From IMG/VR virus record IMGVR_UViG_2877948078_000003: a stretch of 64,000 nt of DNA; one strand, 5' to 3'. The notes beneath the pieces were generated by a model, which saw nothing but the letters and a program-made list of their open reading frames with translations, searched no databases and was not told where the DNA came from. The position numbers and the translations under genes were made by a program. The stretch's first letter is position 1. Every line of letters starts with the position of its first letter. This document shows, in pieces, positions 1,782 through 56,971 of this stretch. This stretch comes from a virus. Lineage: Duplodnaviria; Heunggongvirae; Uroviricota; Caudoviricetes.

Positions 1782-2244
1782 TCATGCCGCAGTGTCTGTG
1801 CTGTTCACTTCCACCGCAATGCTGTCAATCAGCAGCGTATACGTCGCCGATTTTGATATATCGGTCAGTTGCAGTTTGTCCACCGCCCCCGATGCCGGTG
1901 ACTTCACCAGTGTGAACGCCGCTCCCCGTTTCTCATCCAGTACTGGTGTCACCTGAATGCTGTTGTTTCCGGCAAACTCAAAAGCCAGCGTGTGCCATCC
2001 GTTATCAAAGACCCCGAATGTATCCAGCTTCGCATTCGGCTTCCTGTGATGCATCGCGTTCAGGTTCGTCGTATCCGTCTGCAGGAAGAAAGACATCAGC
2101 ATATCGTTACCTTCTCCTGACAGCGTCACCCCCTCCGGCAGGGACGACAACTGCCAGTAAATGCCCAGGGCAAACTGATTCGGCACCAGTGAACCCGGCA
2201 ACTTAAACCGTACGCTCACACGTCCGCCCTTCTTCAGTAACTCC
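1782..2244 (-). pseudogene. nanS-p: 3' (C-terminal) fragment of a nanS-p-type sialate O-acetylesterase gene, cut off by the Mu-like insertion
   Basis: Translation ELLKKGGRVSVRFKLPGSL...IDSIAVEV aligns to the C-terminal ~155 aa of the intact 680-aa paralogue at 36834-38876; homology stops exactly at the Mu-like left end. Confidence 0.8.
2240..2244. repeat. Left copy of the 5-bp target-site duplication ACTCC
   Basis: ACTCC directly outside the prophage left terminus; identical pentamer at 41125-41129; removing the element and one copy restores the nanS-p frame (GAELLKKGG). Confidence 0.6.
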
Positions 2245-24340: not shown

Positions 24341-24571
24341 ATGACAACCATTTTTATCAAACCCGCGCCGGGATGCCTGATTCGTGATCCCGACACAATG
24401 CGCCCGCTGGCACAGGAGGGGGAAGAAAAACCCTTCACACCGTTCTGGTGTCGGCGTCTTGATGACGGCGATGTGATTGAGATTGAAAAAACAGCCGGTT
24501 CTGCGGATGCACCGGCAGAAAAACCCGCAGCGACTGTAAAACCCGTGGCATCTGACAAGGAGGCTTCCTGA
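24341..24571 (+). CDS. Mu gp38-like small protein
   Basis: 76-aa ORF directly upstream of the tail sheath gene. Confidence 0.5.
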   Translation: MTTIFIKPAPGCLIRDPDTMRPLAQEGEEKPFTPFWCRRLDDGDVIEIEKTAGSADAPAEKPAATVKPVASDKEAS

Positions 24572-26052
24572 TGATCAACTTTGATTCCATCAGTAATACA
24601 AACCGTATTCCGCTTTTTCAGGCGGAATTCAATAACTCCATGGCGGTAACCGGTACTCCGCCGCAGCGTCAGTGTGTCCTGTTGTTCGGACAGAGAAGTT
24701 CTTCTGTTGGTGGTGTTATTAACGTTCCGTACCGTATCACAAGGGCAGAACAGGCCGCCGAGCGCTGGGGAAGAGGCTCCATGATTGCCCGCATGGTGGC
24801 TGAATTTATTGCCATCAATCCTGATACAGAACTGTATGCCATCGCACAGGATAACGGGACAGGCAAAAACGACGCCGGAACGATTACGATGAGCGGAACA
24901 TCCGTTGTTGACGGTGTGCTCAGTATTTATATCGCCGGTAAGGGGTATCCGGTGGCTGTCAGCAAAGGAGAAAAAGCGGCGGATGTTGCCGGAAAACTGG
25001 CTCTGCTCATAAATCAGGATCTGGATGCGCCTGTTGCTGCTGTGGCAAACGCCCCGTCAGACAATAGTGATGCCACAAAAAAAGTCATCGCACTGTCAGC
25101 AAAGTTCGTCAGCGAGTGTGACCATGATGTCCGGCTGAATTACTACCCGGAGGATGTTGCTCCGCTGGGGATTACCGTGATCATCTCCGGTCGCTCAGCC
25201 GTCCCCAAAAACCCGGATATCACCCGCAGCGTGGCTGCGATGGGGGATCGGCAGTACAACTATATCGTCATGCCGTATAAAGATGCAGCCAATCTGAAGA
25301 TTCTGGCGAACGAACTGCTGACGCGCTGGGGACCGGAAAAAATGAATGATGGTATGGTCTGGATGGCGCATACCGGTACGTTTGGTAATGTGTCCAGCTT
25401 CGGGGAGTCCAGAAATGATTTTCTGTTTACCTGTACCGCGATCCCAAAAGCACCGGAGCCGGATTATATCTGGGCAGCCACCCTGTGCGCCACCTGTGCG
25501 CCGTCTTTATCAGTCGATCCGGCGCGACCTCTGCAATCTCTGGCATTGCCTTCCCGACTGGCTCCGGCATTGTCTGCCCGCCTTACAAATGAGGAACGAA
25601 ACAGTCTGTTGTATACGGGGATTTCCACAGTAACGGTGGGAGCCGGTGATGTGATGCAGATTGAGCGTCAGGTGACCATGTATCGCCAGAACGCATACGG
25701 CGAAAGCGATCCCAGCTATCTGGATGTGGAAACCATCTACACCCTGTCATATCTGCGTTACTCCCTGCGGGTATTCATTACACAGCGTTTCCCCCGCCAT
25801 AAGCTGGCAGATGACGGAACGCCTGTTGGTCCCGGACAGTTCATTGTGACACCGCAGATCATGAAGCTCCAGTTGATTGCTCTGGGTGAAGAGTGGATTG
25901 AACAGGGGCTGGTCGAGAATATGGAGGTATTTAAAAACAATCTGCTTGTGGAGCGTAACGCAACCGATCGTAACCGTCTGGATGTGATGTGTACACCGGA
26001 CCTGGTTAACCAGTTCCGCTTCATGGCAGCGCAGATCCGTTTCATTTTGTGA
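24571..26052 (+). CDS. Contractile tail sheath protein (Mu L / gp39-like)
   Basis: 493 aa (Mu L ~495 aa); followed by the tube gene. Confidence 0.85.
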   Translation: MINFDSISNTNRIPLFQAEFNNSMAVTGTPPQRQCVLLFGQRSSSVGGVINVPYRITRAEQAAERWGRGSMIARMVAEFIAINPDTELYAIAQDNGTGKNDAGTITMSGTSVVDGVLSIYIAGKGYPVAVSKGEKAADVAGKLALLINQDLDAPVAAVANAPSDNSDATKKVIALSAKFVSECDHDVRLNYYPEDVAPLGITVIISGRSAVPKNPDITRSVAAMGDRQYNYIVMPYKDAANLKILANELLTRWGPEKMNDGMVWMAHTGTFGNVSSFGESRNDFLFTCTAIPKAPEPDYIWAATLCATCAPSLSVDPARPLQSLALPSRLAPALSARLTNEERNSLLYTGISTVTVGAGDVMQIERQVTMYRQNAYGESDPSYLDVETIYTLSYLRYSLRVFITQRFPRHKLADDGTPVGPGQFIVTPQIMKLQLIALGEEWIEQGLVENMEVFKNNLLVERNATDRNRLDVMCTPDLVNQFRFMAAQIRFIL

Positions 26053-26060
26053 GGTAAGGC

Positions 26061-26426
26061 ATGAGCGGAAAACAGTATCAGGGCACGGCCACTATCCGTG
26101 TGAACGGTCAGGAATACTCCACCCTTGAGGGGGCCACGTTCTCCCCGTCCGGCTTTGAGCGTGAAGTGGTGAAAGGCGCAAAAGTCTATGGCTATCGCGA
26201 GAAACCACGTGAAGCGACGCTGGACTGCAAATTTCCGGCAGGCGGAGACGGTTCACCGGCTGCTGATGAAATCAACACCTGGACTGCGGTCACCATCGAG
26301 TTTGTGGCGGACACCGGCGAAGTCCACATGATGACGAAGGCCTGGAGCAGTGAACCGGCCTCACTTGACGGTGGCGGGGAGATCTCCGCGAAGTTCGCCA
26401 GTGCCACCAGTACCCGTGTCCAGTAA
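26061..26426 (+). CDS. Tail tube protein (Mu M / gp40-like)
   Basis: 121 aa directly after sheath. Confidence 0.75.
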   Translation: MSGKQYQGTATIRVNGQEYSTLEGATFSPSGFEREVVKGAKVYGYREKPREATLDCKFPAGGDGSPAADEINTWTAVTIEFVADTGEVHMMTKAWSSEPASLDGGGEISAKFASATSTRVQ

Positions 26427-26440
26427 TCAGGAAAAATAAA

Positions 26441-26917
26441 ATGACCACACGTAAGAAAAAAACAGCGGTTTCTGACGAAGCCGTTATTGAGGCTATCCGT
26501 GATGCACTTGAGGACGGCGATCCACGCACCGCCGGTCTGGCTGAACAACTGGCGAAAGGCTATGTGGATCTGCTTGATGGTCTGCCATTCGGTGAGTCCC
26601 GTGAATACCGCGTCACCTTCCGTGAACTGACGGCGAAAGACAGCATTGATGCGGAAACCGATGCTGAACGTCTTATGGAAACCCGAAATGGCCCGGTTCT
26701 GGTGGCATCACCGGCCCTGCGCGGTATTGCGCTGCTGCGTCGCCAGATTGCCGCTGTCGGTGACATTCAGGGGCCGTTGTCACAACGCCAGATTGGACAG
26801 TTAAGCGAGCGCGATCTCTCCCGTCTGATGGCAGCGGTCAGCCTGCTGGATACAGCGCTTGCCGGAAAGCTGGCGGCTGATCGGGGGCGAGCAGGCGCAG
26901 TGTCGGGCGCAGATTGA
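26441..26917 (+). CDS. Tail assembly chaperone (Mu gp41-like)
   Basis: 158 aa between tube and tape measure. Confidence 0.55.
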   Translation: MTTRKKKTAVSDEAVIEAIRDALEDGDPRTAGLAEQLAKGYVDLLDGLPFGESREYRVTFRELTAKDSIDAETDAERLMETRNGPVLVASPALRGIALLRRQIAAVGDIQGPLSQRQIGQLSERDLSRLMAAVSLLDTALAGKLAADRGRAGAVSGAD

Positions 26918-27041
26918 AGAAGCGGCAATAGTGCTGGGGATGGTGACCAGAAGCGGCCCGGAATGGGCACTTAACCTCCCCTTATCGCAACTTTACCGGC
27001 ACTGCCAACAAACGGAAAAAATTCTCAGAACGAAGCAGTAA
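26859..27041 (+). CDS. Possible frameshift extension of the tail chaperone (overlapping ORF ending just before the tape-measure gene)
   Basis: 60-codon ORF in the +1 (equivalent to -2) frame overlapping the last 59 nt of the chaperone gene and stopping 3 nt before the tape-measure start; analogous to conserved tail-chaperone frameshifts. Confidence 0.35.
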   Translation: MPESWRLIGGEQAQCRAQIEEAAIVLGMVTRSGPEWALNLPLSQLYRHCQQTEKILRTKQ

Positions 27042-27044
27042 TCC

Positions 27045-29099
27045 ATGGCAAAAAACCTGAAAGCCTCCCTGATTGTCGATTTACTCGGCAATGTTTCCGC
27101 CAAATCCCGCCAGTGGTCACAGGAGCTGGGAGCGTTCTCCCGCGTCGGCAGGACGGGGCTGGGTGGTATTGGAAATGCAGCCCGCCGTGCCGGTCAGGAG
27201 ACAGAGCTTGTCGGCTCCCGTATGCAGCGTACGCTTGCCGGTGTCCGTGGCAGTATCCGCACGGTAACGTCGGATTTTGACCGTCTTCAGGGCAGTATTA
27301 CCGGCACACTGGGACGTCTCAGCAACCTTTACGGGATGCTGGCAGGAGGGGCTGCGGTCTACGGTTTTAATAAAGCCTTTATCCGCCCGGCCGCAGAGAT
27401 GGAGAACTATATTCTGCGTCTCAATGCCATTAATCATGGCGATACGGCAAAAACGGAAGCAGTGAAAGCCTGGGCGGTACAGAACGCAAAGGAAACCACC
27501 TGGGGGCTGGCGGGGGTTATGCAGGAATACGCCTCCAGTCGCGGGTTCGGTATGAGTGACAGGGAAGCCCGCCGCTTTATTACCATGCTTCAGGATCAGG
27601 GCGGCTATCACGGCTGGTCACTGTCAGATGCACAGGGTGCGTCCCTGCAACTCAAACAGATGTTTGCCCGCCAGAGTATCCAGGCCGCGGACGCCAGTAT
27701 CCTGACCGGATACGGGATAAACGTTTACCAGTTGCTGGCCGATAAACTGGGTGTAAACCAGAAGACCATCCGTGAGAAAGGCGAGAAAGGAAAACTGGGA
27801 CCGGACAGCATTCGGCTGTTATTTCAGGTGATGGCCGAACAGGCAAAAGGTGCCCAGAAAAACGCCATGAACTCATGGACAGGGATGACATCCATGATGG
27901 GCGACGTCTGGGACGGATTTGCCCGTGAAGTAATGGCAAAAGGGCCATTTGACAGCCTGAAAAAGAGCCTGAAAGGCTTCCTGGATTATGCCGATGCGGC
28001 ACAGAAAAGCGGCTTACAGGACAAGCTGGCCACACAAACAGCCTCAGCCCTGAATCAGGGGTTTGAGTATGCCAGAGACGCAGCGACGGGTTTTTACCGG
28101 GCCATTCAGAAAGTCAGGGAAACGCTTCAGGCATTGCGTGACGCTGGTTATGGCGATGCGCTGAATCGCATTGGTCAGGGCGCACAGACCGCCGCGAAAT
28201 ATCTCCTGTATATGTATCTCGCCACCCGTGCGCTGAAGGCTGTCCGCGCCATAGGTCTTGGGGCACTGCGACCGGGGGCGGCATTGTTGGGGTACGGGTT
28301 ATCCACGGCCGCTGTGCTGACCTCGCCTTTTCGTAAACCGCAGACCACCGTTCCGGGCACGCAGCCAGGACGTGGCCAGCGTTTTATGAACTTTCTTACC
28401 GGGGTAAATCCTGCTGCCGTTCAGCCCGTACTGGTCACCAACTGGCCTGCGGGTGGTCTGGCATCAGGTGGCGGGGATGTGGTGGTCAGCGGTGACGGCA
28501 AAACCGTGCGCGGTCGTAAAAAACGCGGCCCCGGACGTGGGCGGGGTGTTTCGACCGTTGTGACCGCAGGCGAACAACTGGCAGAGAGTGCCGGTAAACA
28601 GGGCTTCTTCGGTCGAATGATGAGCCGTGCCGGTGGTCTGCTTTCGGCTGCCGGAAACCGCATGGGACTGGGGCGTTTTGCCGGGCTTTTCCGTGGTGCT
28701 GGTCGGCTGGGTGGTGGTGCCCTGTGGGCCGGTGCCATGGCGGCTCCTGTACTGCTGGACAGCAGTGCCAGTGCCGTTGATAAAGCCGGTGCCGTGGGTT
28801 CCCTTGCCGGAAGTATCGCCGGTGGTGCGCTGGGGGCTGCCGCCGGTCCGGTCGGGGTTGCCATTGGTTCCACGGTGGGCAGTTATCTCGGTGATTATCT
28901 GGGGGGATGGCTGACCGAAGCCTGGCAGAAATTACGGGGCAGTGATGAAAATGGCGGACAGGCCACCGCGAAAACCGCCGCACGGGTGGAGCTTGTGGCC
29001 CCTGAAGGCTGGCGGGCACGCAGTATTGATGTGGATGATACCGTACAGCATGGCCTGGATGTGAACGTCTGGAACGGAGGGAACTATGGCCTCTACTGA
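27045..29099 (+). CDS. Tail tape measure protein (Mu gp42-like)
   Basis: 684 aa, Gly/Ala-rich with predicted TM-like stretches; position. Confidence 0.8.
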   Translation: MAKNLKASLIVDLLGNVSAKSRQWSQELGAFSRVGRTGLGGIGNAARRAGQETELVGSRMQRTLAGVRGSIRTVTSDFDRLQGSITGTLGRLSNLYGMLAGGAAVYGFNKAFIRPAAEMENYILRLNAINHGDTAKTEAVKAWAVQNAKETTWGLAGVMQEYASSRGFGMSDREARRFITMLQDQGGYHGWSLSDAQGASLQLKQMFARQSIQAADASILTGYGINVYQLLADKLGVNQKTIREKGEKGKLGPDSIRLLFQVMAEQAKGAQKNAMNSWTGMTSMMGDVWDGFAREVMAKGPFDSLKKSLKGFLDYADAAQKSGLQDKLATQTASALNQGFEYARDAATGFYRAIQKVRETLQALRDAGYGDALNRIGQGAQTAAKYLLYMYLATRALKAVRAIGLGALRPGAALLGYGLSTAAVLTSPFRKPQTTVPGTQPGRGQRFMNFLTGVNPAAVQPVLVTNWPAGGLASGGGDVVVSGDGKTVRGRKKRGPGRGRGVSTVVTAGEQLAESAGKQGFFGRMMSRAGGLLSAAGNRMGLGRFAGLFRGAGRLGGGALWAGAMAAPVLLDSSASAVDKAGAVGSLAGSIAGGALGAAAGPVGVAIGSTVGSYLGDYLGGWLTEAWQKLRGSDENGGQATAKTAARVELVAPEGWRARSIDVDDTVQHGLDVNVWNGGNYGLY

Positions 29100-30444
29100 C
29101 ACGCCGGGGCGTGGCTCCTTTCGTGGTGTACCGTTTCTGGTTTATCAGGAACAACGGGAACGGGGCGGACGTAACATTGTACGCCGTGAATATCCTCTGC
29201 GGGAAAGCGGCGGCGCGGATGATTTGGGGCCAAAACTCCCGGAGTTTACATTCACGGCTCTTGTGATCGGCGATGATCTTCAGACGCAGCGAAGCCGCCT
29301 GCGGGATGCGCTGCGGGCACCCGGTGCCGGTGAACTGATGCACCCGGATTACGGCACCTTAAACGTGCTGATAAACAGCTTTGAAAGCCGTTATAACGCC
29401 AGCGAACAGGGAACGGTTGAGTTCACAATCAACGTGATCCCCGCCTGTGATGATACCGCACCGGCGGTGGCTGAAGACACGGCTGCCGTTCTGGAGCAGA
29501 AAAGCGGTTCAGCAATGAATCAGTTGTTTAACACGCTTTCAGACGGCTGGACAGTGATTTCAGACGGCCTGCATGATGTGCAGGCCATGACCGACACCAT
29601 CAGCGATAAAATTGATGCGCTGGAGAATGCCGTTTCGGGAATGGGGATTGTGCAGGATATCAGTGCCTTTACGGCCAGTTTCACTGCCCTGAAAGGGAAT
29701 GCTGCCGCCCTGATTAATTCGCCCCGTCGCATGGCTGAATCTCTGGCCGGAATGTTTGCGGTGCTGACGGGACTGCCCGGCGATCCTTCCCTGTCACTGA
29801 CCGGGAAGGCCGCAACGCCGTCCGGCAGCCTGACCACAAACCGTGACAGCATGACAGAGCAGGCAATGCCGCAACTGTACCGCACACTTTCTTCCCTGCG
29901 TTATACCCTCAGCGGGCAGGATGATCCGCAGATCCTGATTGGTCTGACGCCTGCGGCACAGAAAAATATCTGTCTTCTGCGGACAGTCATGCAGAGCGCA
30001 ACCCTGGTGTCACAGGCGCAGACGGTAGGAAAACTGCTGGATCAGGTCGTCCGGCAGAGTGCGACGCACGTTCAGGATACTGACCGGGAGGGCGGACTGG
30101 CCTGGCTGGAAAGTTCTGCCGATGTGCAGCGGCTCAACCGGGATTTGAGTGATGCCCTGGAACAACAGGTGCTGGATTTGTCCGCACAGGGCCATACCGG
30201 AACCGCCCTTGCATTACGTGATGCCAGGCTTGCGCTGACAGAGGATTTAACAACGCGTAGCGTGCATCTTCCCGGCGCTTCTCAGGTCATGGTGCGAACC
30301 ACCGAACCGGCACTGGTCACGCTGTACCGTGCCACCGGCAACAGCCGTCGCTGGCAGTATTTTGTCCGCAGGAACAACATCCCTGATCCGGTTTTTGTTC
30401 CTGGTGGTCGCAGTGTGGAGGTGATCAGTGAGCAGCATGATTGA
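29086..30444 (+). CDS. Mu N-like DNA circularisation / tail protein (gp43)
   Basis: 452 aa; order after tape measure. Confidence 0.7.
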   Translation: MASTDTPGRGSFRGVPFLVYQEQRERGGRNIVRREYPLRESGGADDLGPKLPEFTFTALVIGDDLQTQRSRLRDALRAPGAGELMHPDYGTLNVLINSFESRYNASEQGTVEFTINVIPACDDTAPAVAEDTAAVLEQKSGSAMNQLFNTLSDGWTVISDGLHDVQAMTDTISDKIDALENAVSGMGIVQDISAFTASFTALKGNAAALINSPRRMAESLAGMFAVLTGLPGDPSLSLTGKAATPSGSLTTNRDSMTEQAMPQLYRTLSSLRYTLSGQDDPQILIGLTPAAQKNICLLRTVMQSATLVSQAQTVGKLLDQVVRQSATHVQDTDREGGLAWLESSADVQRLNRDLSDALEQQVLDLSAQGHTGTALALRDARLALTEDLTTRSVHLPGASQVMVRTTEPALVTLYRATGNSRRWQYFVRRNNIPDPVFVPGGRSVEVISEQHD

Positions 30445-35168: not shown

Positions 35169-35690
35169 ATGGAACTAATCAACGTTAAGCGATATAACCC
35201 GGAACACAAACCCTATGGTGAGAATGTTCAGTATTTCCAGAGTGAGGACGGAAGGGATTTTTATGAATCTATCCCGCTTTTCACAAAGAAATACAAACTC
35301 TGTATTTCGCCTGTAACGGGTATTATCTGCTCTGTTGCTGAAGATGTCTCTGCTTTATATCCGGCAGGTTTTACTGTTGTTGAAGTGGACGAACTGCCGG
35401 AAGGTGTGAATATTGACGGTAACTGGCAGTTTTCTGATGGCCTGATATCAAAGGTGCCGGTAAACTGGAAGACGGTTGCTGAAAATCGCCGCTCATCGCT
35501 GCTCCAGGAGGCCAACGGAACCGTGGATGACTGGAAAACAGAATTAAAACTGGACATGATTAGCGATGAAAATAAATTAAAGCTGACGCGCTGGATGGCG
35601 TATATCCGACAGCTTAAAGAAATGCACTTTAATGATATTGCCAGTGAGGGGCATTACCAGGCGATTCCCTGGCCGGAAAAACCGGAATAA
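35169..35690 (+). CDS. U: Tail fibre assembly protein (U / Tfa-like)
   Basis: 173 aa immediately after S; Tfa-like N-terminus. Confidence 0.7.
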   Translation: MELINVKRYNPEHKPYGENVQYFQSEDGRDFYESIPLFTKKYKLCISPVTGIICSVAEDVSALYPAGFTVVEVDELPEGVNIDGNWQFSDGLISKVPVNWKTVAENRRSSLLQEANGTVDDWKTELKLDMISDENKLKLTRWMAYIRQLKEMHFNDIASEGHYQAIPWPEKPE

Positions 35691-35724
35691 TTCAGAGGGT
35701 GCATTCAGCACCCTTTTCTGTGGT

Positions 35725-36105
35725 TTACACTGAACTCACCGTTCTCCAGGCATTATTAATATAAATCTGAACCGGGCGATAATAGACCCCACCGATATTA
35801 TCCGCAGACCGGGAGCCGGTATCCTGTACATGAATACCGGAAAGCATACAACCTGCTGGTGTTTTATAATCCCAGGTGACTTCATTACCCGCAGGAGAGT
35901 GGCGGCTCTGAGCACCAAGTTGCACATTACGAACATATCTGCCGTCTGCTGTAGCCTGGGTCATACCGGATGTAATAGTGATGTCTTTTGTGCCATCGAA
36001 CGCAACACCATTAATTTTACGTGCCGCAGACAGCTTGTTTGCCGCTACGGCTGTACCATTCGATGGCAGGGCATTTGCAGCCCTGTTTACCGTTTCCCGT
36101 AAACC
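35725..36105 (-). CDS. Alternative tail-fibre C-terminal segment S' (expressed only after inversion; no own start codon)
   Basis: Minus-strand frame open from gix-R down to the stop at 35725; after inversion it fuses in frame to the S constant part; ends YRPVQIYINNAWRTVSSV, paralogous to the S tip. Confidence 0.55.
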   Translation of the reverse strand, partial: GLRETVNRAANALPSNGTAVAANKLSAARKINGVAFDGTKDITITSGMTQATADGRYVRNVQLGAQSRHSPAGNEVTWDYKTPAGCMLSGIHVQDTGSRSADNIGGVYYRPVQIYINNAWRTVSSV

Positions 36106-36119
36106 GAGGTTTCAGGGAT
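36094..36119. promoter_or_regulatory. gix-R recombination site
   Basis: TTCCCGTAAACC-GA-GGTTTCAGGGAT, inverted relative to gix-L. Confidence 0.65.
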
Positions 36120-36173: not shown

Positions 36174-36734
36174 ATGCTGATTGGCTATATACGCGTATCA
36201 ACAAATGACCAGAACACAGGTTTACAAAGAAATGCGCTGGAATGTGCAGGATGTGAGCAGATTTTTGAAGATAAAATGAGCGGAAACACAACGCAGCGAC
36301 CGGGACTGAAGCGGGCACTGAAGAAACTAAAACCCGGTGACACACTGATGGTCTGGAAACTGGACAGGCTGGGGCGCAGTATGCGCCACCTTGTTGCGCT
36401 GACAGATGAATTACAGCAACAGGGGATAAATTTTCGTAGTCTTACTGACAACATTGATACGTCAACCCCCATGGGGCGCTTCTTTTTTCACATAATGGGT
36501 GCGCTGGCAGAAATGGAGCGTGAATTAATTGTCGAACGGACACGGGCTGGTCTTGCAGCTGCCCGTGAAAGGGGACGAACCGGCGGCAGACCCCGCCGTC
36601 TCACGCAGGAACAATACGAGCAGGTTGGGCGTTTACTGGCCGGGGGTGTCAGTCGAAGACAGGTGGCACTTATTTTTGATATCGGCCTTTCAACCCTTTA
36701 TCGTTATTATCCTGCGAGCGTTTCGGAAAAATAA
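36174..36734 (+). CDS. gin: Serine DNA invertase (Gin/Hin/Pin family)
   Basis: 186 aa; N-terminal MLIGYIRVSTNDQ catalytic-serine motif; C-terminal HTH; adjacent to gix-R. Confidence 0.9.
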   Translation: MLIGYIRVSTNDQNTGLQRNALECAGCEQIFEDKMSGNTTQRPGLKRALKKLKPGDTLMVWKLDRLGRSMRHLVALTDELQQQGINFRSLTDNIDTSTPMGRFFFHIMGALAEMERELIVERTRAGLAAARERGRTGGRPRRLTQEQYEQVGRLLAGGVSRRQVALIFDIGLSTLYRYYPASVSEK

Positions 36735-41124: not shown

Positions 41125-41129
41125 ACTCC
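41125..41129. repeat. Right copy of the 5-bp target-site duplication ACTCC
   Basis: Identical to 2240-2244. Confidence 0.6.
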
Positions 41130-46623: not shown

Positions 46624-46700
46624 TGGACCGCCATCGAGGACTCGAACCCCGCGCAGCCAGCTTCGAAGGCTGGCGCTCTATCCCGATGAGCTAATGGCGG
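46624..46700 (-). tRNA. tRNA-Arg (anticodon UCG)
   Basis: Cloverleaf folded by hand: acceptor CCGCCAT/ATGGCGG, D stem GCTC/GAGC, anticodon stem CCAGC/GCTGG with loop CTTCGAA, T loop TTCGAGT, encoded CCA. Confidence 0.85.
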
Positions 46701-46709
46701 TATGTGATA

Positions 46710-46785
46710 TGGTGGCCCTTGCTGGATTTGAACCAGCGACCTGGCGATTATGAGTCGCTCGCTCTCACCACTGAGCTAAAGGGCC
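46710..46785 (-). tRNA. tRNA-Ile2 (anticodon CAU, ileX/ileZ-like); tRNA-Met not excluded
   Basis: GGCCCTTTAGCTCAGTGGTGAGAGC...CTCATAA...GGTTCAAATCC...GGGCCACCA closely resembles E. coli ileX as recalled; anticodon loop CTCATAA. Confidence 0.85.
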
Positions 46786-56002: not shown

Positions 56003-56971
56003 CTACCCCCTGAAACCAGGCGGAATTTCGGTATCCGGTTCAGAAATATGATTCACGCAACGCTGCGCGGGCGAACGCCCCAGGCGAATAACCAGTTCAT
56101 CCCATTTTTCCCGGAGTTTTGCCGGACTCATGATGTTTTTTACCCAGAACGAATCCCGCTGAACACGCCCAAACATTTCACAAATCTGTCGGTGACTACG
56201 TCCATCCAGCATACGCATCATGCGCACATCATTCGCCCAGGTCGTCCAGTTAGGCTCTCTGGGGCGTGATACCTCCCCATCATCACTGGCGGCCTGTTCA
56301 TACAACGCAACAACCCGTCCCCAGATCCACTGTGCACACGTCAAATCCTCCCGGGTTCCCCACTGTCGCTTCGGGACATTCCAGGTATGCGCATCCGGGT
56401 GTTTCTCCAGAAATCGCTCAACCGGTGATGATTGTTTTTCGTCCGGCAGTGAAACGTCCGGACAAGAAGATCTTTTATCTGACGGTTCAGGTTTTAATAC
56501 TGACGGATCGGGGTCAATCATCGCCCCCCTAATCGGCAGTTTTTTATCAACAGTTGATCCATCAAAATTTGACGGGCCAACCGTTGAGGGGTCAATATTT
56601 GACGGGTCATTTTTTGCCAGGCTAATTTTTCTTTTTGGTTTATATGCCTCACGCGCCGCCGCTGCAGCTGCTTCAAGTTTTTCCACATTAAGCCGATAGA
56701 TATTGCTTACGTTACGCCCACCGACCTTACGCTCTTCCTTCGTCAGCCAGCCCTCTTTCGCCAGTTCTGCAATAGCAGATTTAACGGTGGATTCACTTCT
56801 TGCACCGATCTGACGCCGGATAGTTTCAATAGCAGGCCATGACACGCCCTCGTCATTGCTGTAGTCTGCAAGACGGGCCATAACTGCCACCCTGGATAAG
56901 ATCATGCCGGTGAAGGCGCACCCTTCCCAGACAAGACCATGAAGCTTGCTGCTCATAACCCCCCCGAACAC
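56003..56971 (-). CDS. Replication initiation protein (O-like, N-terminal HTH)
   Basis: 322 aa; N-terminal winged-helix (WPAIETIRRQIGARSESTVKSAIAELAKEGWL); position upstream of the DnaC-like gene. Confidence 0.65.
   Translation of the reverse strand: MFGGVMSSKLHGLVWEGCAFTGMILSRVAVMARLADYSNDEGVSWPAIETIRRQIGARSESTVKSAIAELAKEGWLTKEERKVGGRNVSNIYRLNVEKLEAAAAAAREAYKPKRKISLAKNDPSNIDPSTVGPSNFDGSTVDKKLPIRGAMIDPDPSVLKPEPSDKRSSCPDVSLPDEKQSSPVERFLEKHPDAHTWNVPKRQWGTREDLTCAQWIWGRVVALYEQAASDDGEVSRPREPNWTTWANDVRMMRMLDGRSHRQICEMFGRVQRDSFWVKNIMSPAKLREKWDELVIRLGRSPAQRCVNHISEPDTEIPPGFRG

What the first reader, a model, noticed from the sequence alone, without database searches (positions are those of the whole stretch)
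26441..27041. Probable programmed frameshift in the tail assembly chaperone of the Mu-like prophage
A 60-codon ORF in the +1 (equivalent to -2) frame overlaps the last 59 nt of the chaperone gene and stops 3 nt before the tape-measure start. This is the arrangement expected for the conserved G/GT-type frameshift of tailed phages. From memory, Mu itself was reported to use an unusual -2 shift at the equivalent position; I cannot verify that here.
Basis: partly seen in the sequence, partly recalled or inferred. Interest (0 to 1): 0.4.

Follow-up and report, generated by a model that had tools for sequence, protein, structure and literature searches.

The report
Mu-type -2 frameshift in tail chaperone
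This Mu-like prophage carries the same eight-base slippery site that phage Mu uses to slide ribosomes back two bases and make a longer version of its tail assembly chaperone. The finding is correct, but it is an expected copy of a known mechanism.

Summary
ORF1 (26441-26917, 158 aa, Pfam Gp41_Mu) is overlapped by an ORF in the +1/-2 frame. That frame is open from 26829, has a TTG at 26859, and stops at 27041, 3 nt before the tape-measure ATG at 27045.

The overlap alone is not unusual: about 15% of shuffles give one. The comparison with relatives carries the case.
- The octamer GG GGG CGA lies at 26883-26890, in the same frame as the site where Mu's -2 shift was verified.
- In 70 distinct relatives (Escherichia, Citrobacter, Pasteurella, Alteromonadaceae, Shewanella, Vibrio; down to about 33% protein identity) the three codons are fixed even at synonymous positions. 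Other invariant residues use 3-6 codons.
- The second frame always continues for 46-51 codons to the tape-measure start.
- It evolves as coding sequence: differences on its codon positions 1/2/3 are 588/317/1036.
- In 22 of 62 distinct loci, including Mu, it has no start codon of its own.

The predicted product is 200 aa (150 + 50, junction ...DRGR|EQAQ...). It is absent from public protein collections. PGAP leaves the 127-nt gap unannotated.

No conserved downstream RNA structure was found.

This is a new member of a known kind, of low interest.

The parts
24571..26052 (+). Tail sheath gene (context)
   Evidence: Pfam Phage_sheath_1 2.9e-32 and Phage_sheath_1C 6.4e-23; phrog_165 tail sheath 2.7e-186.
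26061..26426 (+). Tail tube gene (context). It lies immediately upstream of the chaperone, as in Mu.
   Evidence: Pfam Tail_tube 8.1e-31; phrog_185.
26441..26917 (+). ORF1: tail assembly chaperone, the Mu gp41 homologue (158 aa). This is the product of ordinary translation.
   Evidence: Pfam Gp41_Mu PF23746 1e-31; phrog_508 tail assembly chaperone 1.1e-43; 48% identical to Mu gp41. AF2 model pLDDT 80.6; best BFVD match is Mu FS-gp41, E 2.3e-14.
26883..26890 (+). Slippery octamer GG GGG CGA. In frame 0, GGG (26885-26887) sits in the P site and CGA (26888-26890) in the A site. This is the proposed site of tandem -2 slippage.
   Evidence: Identical in sequence and frame to the Mu site. Present in frame in 62 of 64 distinct related regions. 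Codons CGG 67/AGG 2, GGG 70/70, CGA 69/69. Information 1.86-2.0 bits at every position of the octamer.
26889..27041 (+). Second-frame ('T-like') segment read after the shift: 50 codons (EQAQCRAQIEEAAIVLGMVTRSGPEWALNLPLSQLYRHCQQTEKILRTKQ) plus the stop at 27039-27041.
   Evidence: phrog_12783 3.7e-35. Aligns with the Mu FS-gp41 C-terminus and with 35 other distinct T segments of 46-51 aa. Substitutions concentrate on its third codon positions.
26829..26888 (+). Probably not translated in this frame.
   Evidence: Frame limits. No Shine-Dalgarno-like sequence in the 15 nt before the TTG (TGCTGGATACAGCGC; my reading). 22 of 62 distinct relatives have no ATG/GTG/TTG here.
27045..29099 (+). Tape measure protein gene. 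It starts 3 nt after the stop of the second frame.
   Evidence: Pfam TMP_3 4e-18; phrog_973 2.3e-199.

Best explanation
Most ribosomes translate ORF1 to its stop at 26915-26917 and make the 158-aa chaperone, the Mu gp41 homologue.

A minority slip when GGG (26885-26887) is in the P site and CGA (26888-26890) is in the A site. Both tRNAs slide two bases toward the 5' end on GG GGG CGA. The tRNA-Gly re-pairs with GGG (26883-26885). The inosine-containing tRNA-Arg re-pairs with GGC (26886-26888) at two of three positions. Decoding resumes at GAG (26889) in the second frame and runs to TAA (27039-27041).

The result is a 200-aa fusion (residues 1-150 of ORF1 plus 50 new residues, junction ...LAADRGR|EQAQCR...). 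By analogy with lambda gpG/gpGT, the common part would coat the tape measure protein and the extra C-terminal segment would recruit the tail tube protein. Neither protein would stay in the finished tail.

Shown here: the anatomy, the identity of the site with Mu's, nucleotide-level constraint on the site, and purifying selection on the second frame.

Inferred from Mu and lambda: that the shift happens, that it is -2 rather than +1, its efficiency, and the roles of the two products.
For: 1. Same site as the verified case. PMC3458567 gives the Mu site as GG GGG CGA with tandem -2 slippage. The Mu record notes 'verified -2 translational frameshift' for Mu_56. Window and Mu both read CGG GGG CGA in the ORF1 frame. 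Applying the -2 rule to Mu reproduces UIW09302.1 and Swiss-Prot P0DJY4 (188 aa) exactly, whereas the +1 version is not in the collection.

2. Constraint at synonymous sites. In 70 distinct relatives the three codons are CGG 67/AGG 2, GGG 70/70 and CGA 69/69. Thirteen other nearly invariant G, R, L, S, A and P columns use 3-6 codons each. Information is 1.86-2.0 bits at every position of the octamer (1.68 at the base before it), against 0.1-0.4 at most flanking third positions. The third base of the preceding Arg codon is always G, which a -2 re-pairing of tRNA-Gly needs and a +1 slip does not.

3. The second frame is conserved. In 64 of 64 distinct regions it stays open 100-145 nt past the ORF1 stop. 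T segments are 46-51 aa and, in all but one of the 89 loci (where no start was located), end between 14 nt before and 23 nt after the tape-measure start. Differences beyond the ORF1 stop fall 588/317/1036 on its codon positions 1/2/3, and position 3 carries the most in all five clades. It matches phrog_12783 at 3.7e-35.

4. Relatives pin the shift window. In L008 the second frame opens only 12 nt before the first post-shift codon. In L087 CGA is followed directly by TAA. Together they confine the shift to about 14 nt ending with the octamer (window 26877-26890).

5. Independent initiation is unlikely. 22 of 62 distinct loci, Mu included, have no ATG/GTG/TTG upstream in that frame.

6. Context is the Mu tail module: sheath, tube, chaperone, tape measure, DNA-circularisation protein. 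No promoter- or terminator-like site lies between them.
Against: - No protein or ribosome data exist for this prophage. Whether it is active is unknown.
- No stimulatory element was found. Downstream folding is no better than shuffles (z -0.36 for the window, -0.95 for Mu). RNAalifold on 14 diverged sequences predicts no pairs. There is no Rfam match. Many -1 sites have such an element.
- The sequence alone cannot separate -2 from +1, because both reach the same frame.
- In this window a TTG at 26859 could in principle start the second frame on its own.
- Two relatives depart from the octamer yet keep the second frame (AAG GGG CGA in Citrobacter braakii; CGG GGG GAG in one IMG/VR contig). So the exact octamer is not strictly required, or those copies are defective or mis-sequenced.
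- The primary paper (Xu et al. 2004) could not be read here. The -2 assignment rests on two reviews and the GenBank and Swiss-Prot records.
Confidence: 0.85

Rival explanations
1. A +1 ribosomal frameshift. The P-site tRNA-Gly slips from GGG to GGC while the poorly decoded CGA waits in the A site. This gives a 199-aa fusion with junction ...DRG|EQAQ....
For: It reaches the same frame. CGA is invariant (69/69), which would also suit a 'hungry codon' +1 mechanism. By my own knowledge, CGA is inefficiently decoded through an I:A wobble pair.
Against: Mu's shift on the identical octamer is recorded as -2. The deposited Mu product equals the -2 reconstruction, not the +1 one. The third base of the preceding Arg codon is G in all 69 Arg codons, with no CGU, CGC, CGA or AGA. 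That constraint is needed only for backward re-pairing.
Confidence: 0.06
2. ORF2 is a separate small gene translated from its own start (TTG 26859) as a 60-aa protein. Some records deposit it this way ('hypothetical protein'; D108 gp41.5).
For: A TTG exists at 26859. The exact 60-aa sequence is deposited as a hypothetical protein in several E. coli records. D108 annotates a separate '41.5'. PHROGs holds the segment as its own family, phrog_12783.
Against: No Shine-Dalgarno-like sequence precedes the TTG (my reading). 22 of 62 distinct relatives, including Mu, have no ATG/GTG/TTG upstream. Where a start exists its position is not conserved, and it is mostly TTG. Alignable conservation begins at the octamer, not upstream of it. 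The D108 '41.5' start corresponds to a CTG codon when mapped onto the near-identical Mu sequence; the D108 sequence itself was not read.
Confidence: 0.03
3. Transcriptional slippage on the G5 run. This would produce mRNAs with one G fewer or two more, which encode the fusion directly.
For: The site contains a homopolymer. One relative has a G7 run (L085). Assemblies with one G fewer, encoding a fused protein, exist (P0107, P0122, P0128).
Against: By established knowledge, productive slippage by bacterial RNA polymerase generally needs longer runs, usually of A or T. The invariance of CGA after the run has no role in a transcriptional model. Mu's event is described as ribosomal.
Confidence: 0.03
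4. There is no recoding. The overlap is a chance open frame in a 127-nt spacer.
For: Open alternative frames of this length are common by chance. PGAP annotates nothing there.
Against: Third-position bias of substitutions in all five clades. Conserved length and sequence of the segment. phrog_12783 at 3.7e-35. The invariant octamer.
Confidence: 0.01

Closest known systems
Phage Mu gp41 / FS-gp41 (Mu_41 and Mu_56; UIW09302.1; Swiss-Prot P0DJY4), the experimentally verified -2 frameshift
   Same: Gene order is sheath, tube, chaperone, tape measure. The Pfam family is Gp41_Mu. The sequence C GG GGG CGA G is identical, in the same frame, near the 3' end of ORF1. The second-frame segment is 50 aa in both and clearly homologous (C-R-x-x-I-E-x-A-A ... 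SGPEWAL-x-LPLS ... RHCQQ). The third frame is closed. The best structural match of the ORF1 model is Mu FS-gp41, E 2.3e-14, TM 0.74.
   Different: The chaperone part is only 48% identical. ORF1 is 158 aa against 144 aa, with a longer N-terminus. The octamer starts 34 nt before the end of the ORF1 stop, against 28 nt in Mu. The second frame is open 89 nt into ORF1, against 38 nt, and contains a TTG. The T stop lies 3 nt before the tape-measure ATG, against 14 nt. The fusion is annotated for Mu but for none of the E. coli prophage copies examined.
Lambda gpG / gpGT tail assembly chaperones (-1 frameshift)
   Same: Two products share an N-terminus and are encoded just upstream of the tape-measure gene. 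The longer one is made by a low-frequency programmed shift near the end of the first ORF. Neither product is in the virion (PMC5009743). The extension ends at the tape-measure start.
   Different: Lambda shifts -1, on a heptamer. Here the -1 frame closes after 14 nt and only the -2/+1 frame is open. Lambda has a non-contractile tail. No sequence similarity to it was detected (no lambda-family Pfam hit).
P2 gpE / gpE+E' and the Pfam family Phage_TAC_7 (PF10109, 'E, or 41 or 14')
   Same: It is a contractile-tail phage with the chaperone pair between the tube and tape-measure genes. ORF1 gives a weak PF10109 match, and many close homologues carry PF10109 in the precomputed annotation.
   Different: The window protein's PF10109 score (23.3 bits) is below the curated cut-off of 25. 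P2 is reported to shift -1 ('-1 (or -2 in Mu)'; PMC2628397).

Membership tests
Mu-type -2 frameshifting tail assembly chaperone (gp41 / FS-gp41) | ORF1 belongs to the Gp41_Mu protein family | tested here: met
   PF23746 1e-31, 109.6 bits against a cut-off of 27; phrog_508; 48% identity to Mu gp41.
Mu-type -2 frameshifting tail assembly chaperone (gp41 / FS-gp41) | Slippery sequence GG GGG CGA, with GGG and CGA as zero-frame codons, near the 3' end of ORF1 | tested here: met
   26883-26890, frame checked. Identical to Mu.
Mu-type -2 frameshifting tail assembly chaperone (gp41 / FS-gp41) | The second frame (-2/+1) is open from the slip site to about the tape-measure start and is homologous to the Mu FS extension | tested here: met
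   26889-27041, 50 codons, aligned with Mu's 50; phrog_12783 3.7e-35.
Mu-type -2 frameshifting tail assembly chaperone (gp41 / FS-gp41) | The fusion protein is actually made, and the shift is -2 (an extra Arg at the junction) | not testable with these tools
   Needs protein mass spectrometry or reporter assays. Inferred from Mu and from the constraint on the G preceding GGG.
Conserved G/GT-type tail assembly chaperone frameshift of tailed phages (Xu, Hendrix and Duda 2004) | Two overlapping ORFs between the major tail (tube) gene and the tape-measure gene | tested here: met
   Tube 26061-26426, ORF1 26441-26917, second frame to 27041, tape measure 27045-29099.
Conserved G/GT-type tail assembly chaperone frameshift of tailed phages (Xu, Hendrix and Duda 2004) | The second ORF lacks its own translation start and is conserved as coding sequence among relatives | tested here: met
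   22 of 62 relatives have no start codon. The window's TTG has no Shine-Dalgarno-like sequence before it (my reading). Codon-position bias is 588/317/1036.
Conserved G/GT-type tail assembly chaperone frameshift of tailed phages (Xu, Hendrix and Duda 2004) | A canonical -1 shift on an X XXY YYZ heptamer | tested here: not met
   The -1 frame closes 14 nt after the ORF1 stop. Only the -2/+1 frame is usable. This is the known Mu exception, not a failure of the functional analogy.
Conserved G/GT-type tail assembly chaperone frameshift of tailed phages (Xu, Hendrix and Duda 2004) | A stimulatory RNA structure or Shine-Dalgarno-like element flanking the slip site | tested here: inconclusive
   No significant or conserved downstream structure and no Rfam hit. 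GGAG lies about 10 nt upstream only in the Shewanella/Vibrio clade, and a conserved G lies at -13. This feature is not required of every member.

The most novel reading that the evidence does not exclude
The Mu-type -2 site may work with no cis stimulator beyond the octamer, so its efficiency would be set by the competing tRNA-Arg species. The -2 model depends on the inosine tRNA-Arg reading CGA. The lambdoid prophage DNA flanking this Mu-like prophage encodes a tRNA-Arg(UCG) (46624-46700, minus strand). That tRNA would read CGA by Watson-Crick pairing and would re-pair poorly with GGC after a -2 slip. If it is expressed, one prophage could lower the chaperone ratio of its neighbour and so its tail assembly. 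Nothing here tests this. It rests on co-location and codon-anticodon reasoning only.
Probability: 0.05. Interest if true: 0.5.

Novelty: new member of a known kind. Interest (0 to 1): 0.2.

Why it matters
There are three practical points.
- A real protein of this prophage family is missing from annotation. The 200-aa fusion is not in a 15-billion-protein collection. PGAP leaves a 127-nt gap in the copies examined, and the family occurs in 230 of 5426 complete E. coli genomes. The extension is filed as a 'hypothetical protein' or as phrog_12783, 'unknown function'.
- Programmed -2 ribosomal frameshifting is rare; few cases are documented. The comparison here shows that the Mu octamer is fixed at nucleotide level across several gammaproteobacterial genera, with no detectable conserved downstream structure. 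That makes a compact natural test set for -2 mechanisms.
- Biologically it is what a specialist would expect in a Mu-like prophage.

Tried and rejected
With A3 on genome contigs it returned only 2 loci. I replaced it with six single-protein scans of IMG/VR.
- The primary paper, Xu et al. 2004 (PMID 15469818), is not held. I relied on two reviews, the KS10 paper and the database records.
- Full-text searches for GGGGGCGA gave only unrelated hits. The one phage hit was a ribosome-binding-site string in a table.
- The GeneTack paper mentions only an HK97-like chaperone cluster.
- A first version of my slip-site script used the wrong codon register and found nothing. It was corrected.
- Downstream RNA structure: MFE z-scores are -0.36 and -0.95 and RNAalifold predicts 0 pairs, so a stimulatory structure is rejected for now. 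Rfam gave nothing.
- PDB gave nothing, either by sequence or by fold (best E 0.5).
- The AF2 model of the 200-aa fusion without an alignment has pLDDT 45 and is not usable. Homologues of the fusion could not be supplied under the tool's input rule.
- A -1 shift is rejected because that frame closes after 14 nt.
- Stop-codon readthrough is rejected. The zero frame beyond TGA hits another stop 18 codons later. Conservation of that stretch was not examined.
- The 159-aa proteins clustered with ORF2 turned out to be ordinary ORF1 variants, not fusions.

Full report
**1. The observation**

- 26441..26917 (158 aa, ATG)
- 26859..27041 (60 aa, TTG)
- 27045..29099 (684 aa, ATG)

The overlap 26859-26917 is 59 nt. 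Three bases (27042-27044) separate the second stop from the next ATG. The second ORF lies one base forward of the first, which is the same as two bases back. Its frame is open from 26829, an 89-nt overlap. The third frame closes 14 nt after the ORF1 stop.

The geometry alone is not remarkable. About 15% of shuffles of the 124 nt past the ORF1 stop have no stop in a given frame. In this window 35 of 129 long ORFs have a +1 frame open that far beyond their stop.

**2. What the genes are**

| Window coordinates | Gene | Evidence |
|---|---|---|
| 24571-26052 | tail sheath | Phage_sheath_1 and Phage_sheath_1C; phrog_165 |
| 26061-26426 | tail tube | Tail_tube 8e-31 |
| 26441-26917 | tail assembly chaperone | Gp41_Mu PF23746 1e-31; phrog_508 |
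| 27045-29099 | tape measure | TMP_3; phrog_973 |
| 29086-30444 | DNA-circularisation protein, Mu gpN-like | DNA_circ_N |

- The 60-aa ORF has no Pfam family but matches phrog_12783 ('unknown function') at 3.7e-35.
- The region is about 99% identical to Mu-like prophages in E. coli 2012EL-2448 and in two Stx-phage records.
- Related copies occur in 230 of 5426 complete E. coli genomes.
- PGAP annotates only ORF1 and leaves the 127 nt before the tape-measure gene empty.
- No promoter- or terminator-like site lies in 25900-27400.

**3. The slippery site**

- PMC3458567 states that in the Mu tail assembly chaperone genes tandem -2 slippage occurs on GG GGG CGA. It says the inosine-containing tRNA-Arg makes a better post-slippage contact in the -2 frame than in the -1 frame.
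- The window reads gat CGG GGG CGA gca in the ORF1 frame, with the octamer at 26883-26890. Mu reads aac CGG GGG CGA gtg in the gp41 frame.
- Applying the -2 rule (decode CGA, then continue two bases back at GAG) to Mu gives a 188-aa protein. It is exactly UIW09302.1 and Swiss-Prot P0DJY4, 'FS-gp41'. The +1 version (187 aa) is not in the collection as a deposited Mu protein.
- The same rule applied to the window gives a 200-aa protein, 150 + 50 aa, with junction ...LAADRGR|EQAQCRAQIEE....
- Neither that sequence nor the 199-aa +1 version exists in the 15-billion-protein collection. ORF1 is there on about 1000 contigs, and the 60-aa ORF is there as a 'hypothetical protein'.

**4.

I gathered 89 loci. 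They came from annotated phages (Mu, D108, Yersinia Tongde, Pasteurella Pmp9, Klebsiella Kp4866-3, Alteromonadaceae B23, Shewanella MuM16-2, Vibrio martha 12B12 and 1.028.O), from E. coli genomes, from Citrobacter braakii and Apirhabdus apintestini, and from IMG/VR. They give 64 distinct 300-nt regions.

- *Second frame.* In all 64 regions the +1/-2 frame stays open 100-145 nt past the ORF1 stop.
- *Octamer.* In 62 of the 64 regions GGGGGCGA is present with GGG in the ORF1 frame, starting 10-58 nt before the end of the ORF1 stop.
- *Protein level.* Arg-Gly-Arg is invariant in the ORF1 alignment. It is found in the last 25 residues of 118 of the 120 best database homologues.
- *Codon level.* The three codons are CGG 67/AGG 2, GGG 70/70 and CGA 69/69. 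Thirteen other nearly invariant Gly, Arg, Leu, Ser, Ala and Pro columns each use 3 to 6 different codons.
- *Per-position information.* It is 1.68-2.0 bits across C GG GGG CGA, against 0.1-0.4 bits at most neighbouring third positions. The flanks are otherwise freely diverged.
- *Direction of the shift.* The third base of the Arg codon before GGG is always G. This fits backward re-pairing of tRNA-Gly on GGG; a +1 slip does not need it.

**5. The second frame is coding but not an independent gene**

- The 36 distinct post-shift segments are 46-51 aa long. In all but one of the 89 loci, where no tape-measure start was located, they end between 14 nt before and 23 nt after that start.
- They align within and partly between clades. 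Window and Mu share C-R-x-x-I-E-x-A-A ... SGPEWAL-x-LPLS ... RHCQQ.
- Beyond the ORF1 stop, pairwise differences fall 588/317/1036 on codon positions 1/2/3 of the second frame. Position 3 carries the most differences in each of five clades. The pairs are not phylogenetically independent, so the chi-square value is only indicative.
- 22 of 62 distinct loci, including Mu, have no ATG, GTG or TTG in that frame upstream of the shift point. Where one exists it is mostly TTG at varying positions. In the window I see no Shine-Dalgarno-like sequence in the 15 nt before it.
- Relatives also delimit the shift window. In L008 the second frame opens 12 nt before the first post-shift codon. In L087 CGA is followed directly by TAA. 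The shift must therefore occur within about 14 nt ending with the octamer (window 26877-26890).

**6. Stimulatory elements**

- The 93 nt from the octamer onward fold no better than shuffles (z -0.36 for the window, -0.95 for Mu).
- RNAalifold on 14 diverged sequences predicts no pair.
- Rfam has no match.
- GGAG lies about 10 nt upstream in the Shewanella/Vibrio clade only.
- A third-position G at -13 (window 26872) is conserved in 50 of 52 contexts. I cannot explain it.

**7. Structure**

- An AF2 model of ORF1 built with 32 homologues has pLDDT 80.6.
- Its best BFVD match is Mu FS-gp41 (E 2.3e-14, TM 0.74). Weaker matches (E 0.01-0.1) are proteins annotated as tail assembly chaperones from Bacillus phages, a haloarchaeal virus and siphoviruses.
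- PDB gives nothing by sequence or by fold.
- The fusion modelled without an alignment is unreliable (pLDDT 45).

**8. Mechanism and rivals**

The best-supported mechanism is tandem -2 ribosomal slippage on GG GGG CGA. It would yield a minor 200-aa fusion beside the major 158-aa chaperone. By analogy with lambda gpG/gpGT, the shared part would bind the tape measure and the extension would bind the tube protein.

- Shown here: the anatomy, the identity with Mu's site, the nucleotide-level constraint, and selection on the second frame.
- Inferred: that the shift occurs in this prophage, its direction, its efficiency and the protein roles.

| Rival | Probability | Main argument against |
|---|---|---|
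| +1 slip on GGG C | 0.06 | Mu data and the constrained preceding G |
| Independent translation from TTG 26859 | 0.03 | No start codon in many relatives |
| Transcriptional slippage on G5 | 0.03 | Run too short, and the invariant CGA is left unexplained |
| Chance open frame | 0.01 | Contradicted by the comparative data |

**9. Comparison with the known, and verdict**

This is a homologue of Mu gp41/FS-gp41 with the same slip site. It works like lambda G/GT and P2 E/E+E', but with a -2 shift instead of -1. The canonical -1 heptamer criterion is not met, exactly as in Mu.

It is a new, unannotated member of a known kind. Interest is low (0.2). The value lies mainly in annotation and in a compact comparative data set for a rare type of recoding.

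Noticed in passing
window 46624-46700 (-) and 46710-46785 (-): ARAGORN finds tRNA-Arg(UCG) and tRNA-Met(CAU) genes outside the Mu-like prophage. The surrounding DNA looks lambdoid: SASA-family esterase, DNA methyltransferase and DUF968 in the best-matching genomes. A UCG anticodon would read CGA, and by wobble CGG. Those are two of the three codons at the frameshift site. The link is speculative.
   Followed up: partly
window 2240-2244 and 41125-41129; prophage about 2245-41124: The Mu-like prophage starts at TGTAACC... (2245) and is flanked by a direct repeat, ACTCC (or CTCC). This is consistent with a transposition target duplication. The same prophage type sits in different places in other strains: hofC in E. 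coli 2012EL-2448, and inside Stx phages in LC727881 and LC727895.
   Followed up: partly
window 35169-36111, next to ORF 36174-36734: This roughly 0.94-kb segment is inverted relative to the E. coli 2012EL-2448 copy of the prophage. It lies beside a gene annotated there as a 'recombinase family protein'. It looks like a Mu G-segment-type invertible tail-fibre switch caught in the other orientation.
   Followed up: no
L013 about 1940-1947 (Citrobacter braakii ATCC 51113) and L085 about 1547-1554 (IMG/VR 3300038701_000691): These are the only two departures from the octamer among 64 distinct regions. One is AAG GGG CGA (first G replaced by A). The other is CGG GGG GAG (a G7 run, no CGA). Both keep an open, homologous second frame. 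They may be weaker or alternative slip sites, or sequencing errors.
   Followed up: partly
proteins P0107 (E. coli, 158 aa), P0122 and P0128 (Mu-like, 187 aa, Logan assemblies): These deposited proteins have the two frames already fused, with junction RG|D/E/Q, as if the G run were one base shorter. P0128 also has Q instead of E at the first post-junction residue. They are either homopolymer assembly errors or natural mutants that would make only the long form.
   Followed up: partly
window 26872 (13 nt upstream of the P-site GGG): A third-codon-position G is conserved in 50 of 52 distinct contexts, although neighbouring third positions vary freely. In the Shewanella/Vibrio clade it is part of GGAG about 10 nt upstream of the octamer. 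In the window and in Mu it is the G of CTG. Unexplained.
   Followed up: no
window 26918-27044, and the same gap in relatives: Annotation habit: PGAP leaves this gap empty in the copies examined, from a family present in 230 complete E. coli genomes. Several phage records do the same (Pmp9, B23, MuM16-2, martha 12B12, 1.028.O). D108 calls the segment a separate gene, '41.5'. PHROGs files it as phrog_12783, 'unknown function'.
   Followed up: yes
L089 11084-11781 and 14940-15521 (E. coli 2012EL-2448 prophage) against window about 10.9-12 kb: The closest annotated copy of the prophage carries an IS1A insertion and a gp27 pseudogene with an internal stop. Between 10892 and 11975 the window gives no long match to that copy, so the two differ here. 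Whether the window carries the IS1 was not checked, and its gp27 region was not examined further.
   Followed up: no
window 56521-56528 (-): A second GGGGGCGA lies on the minus strand, outside the prophage. My estimate is about two occurrences expected by chance in 128 kb of two strands, so it is probably meaningless.
   Followed up: no
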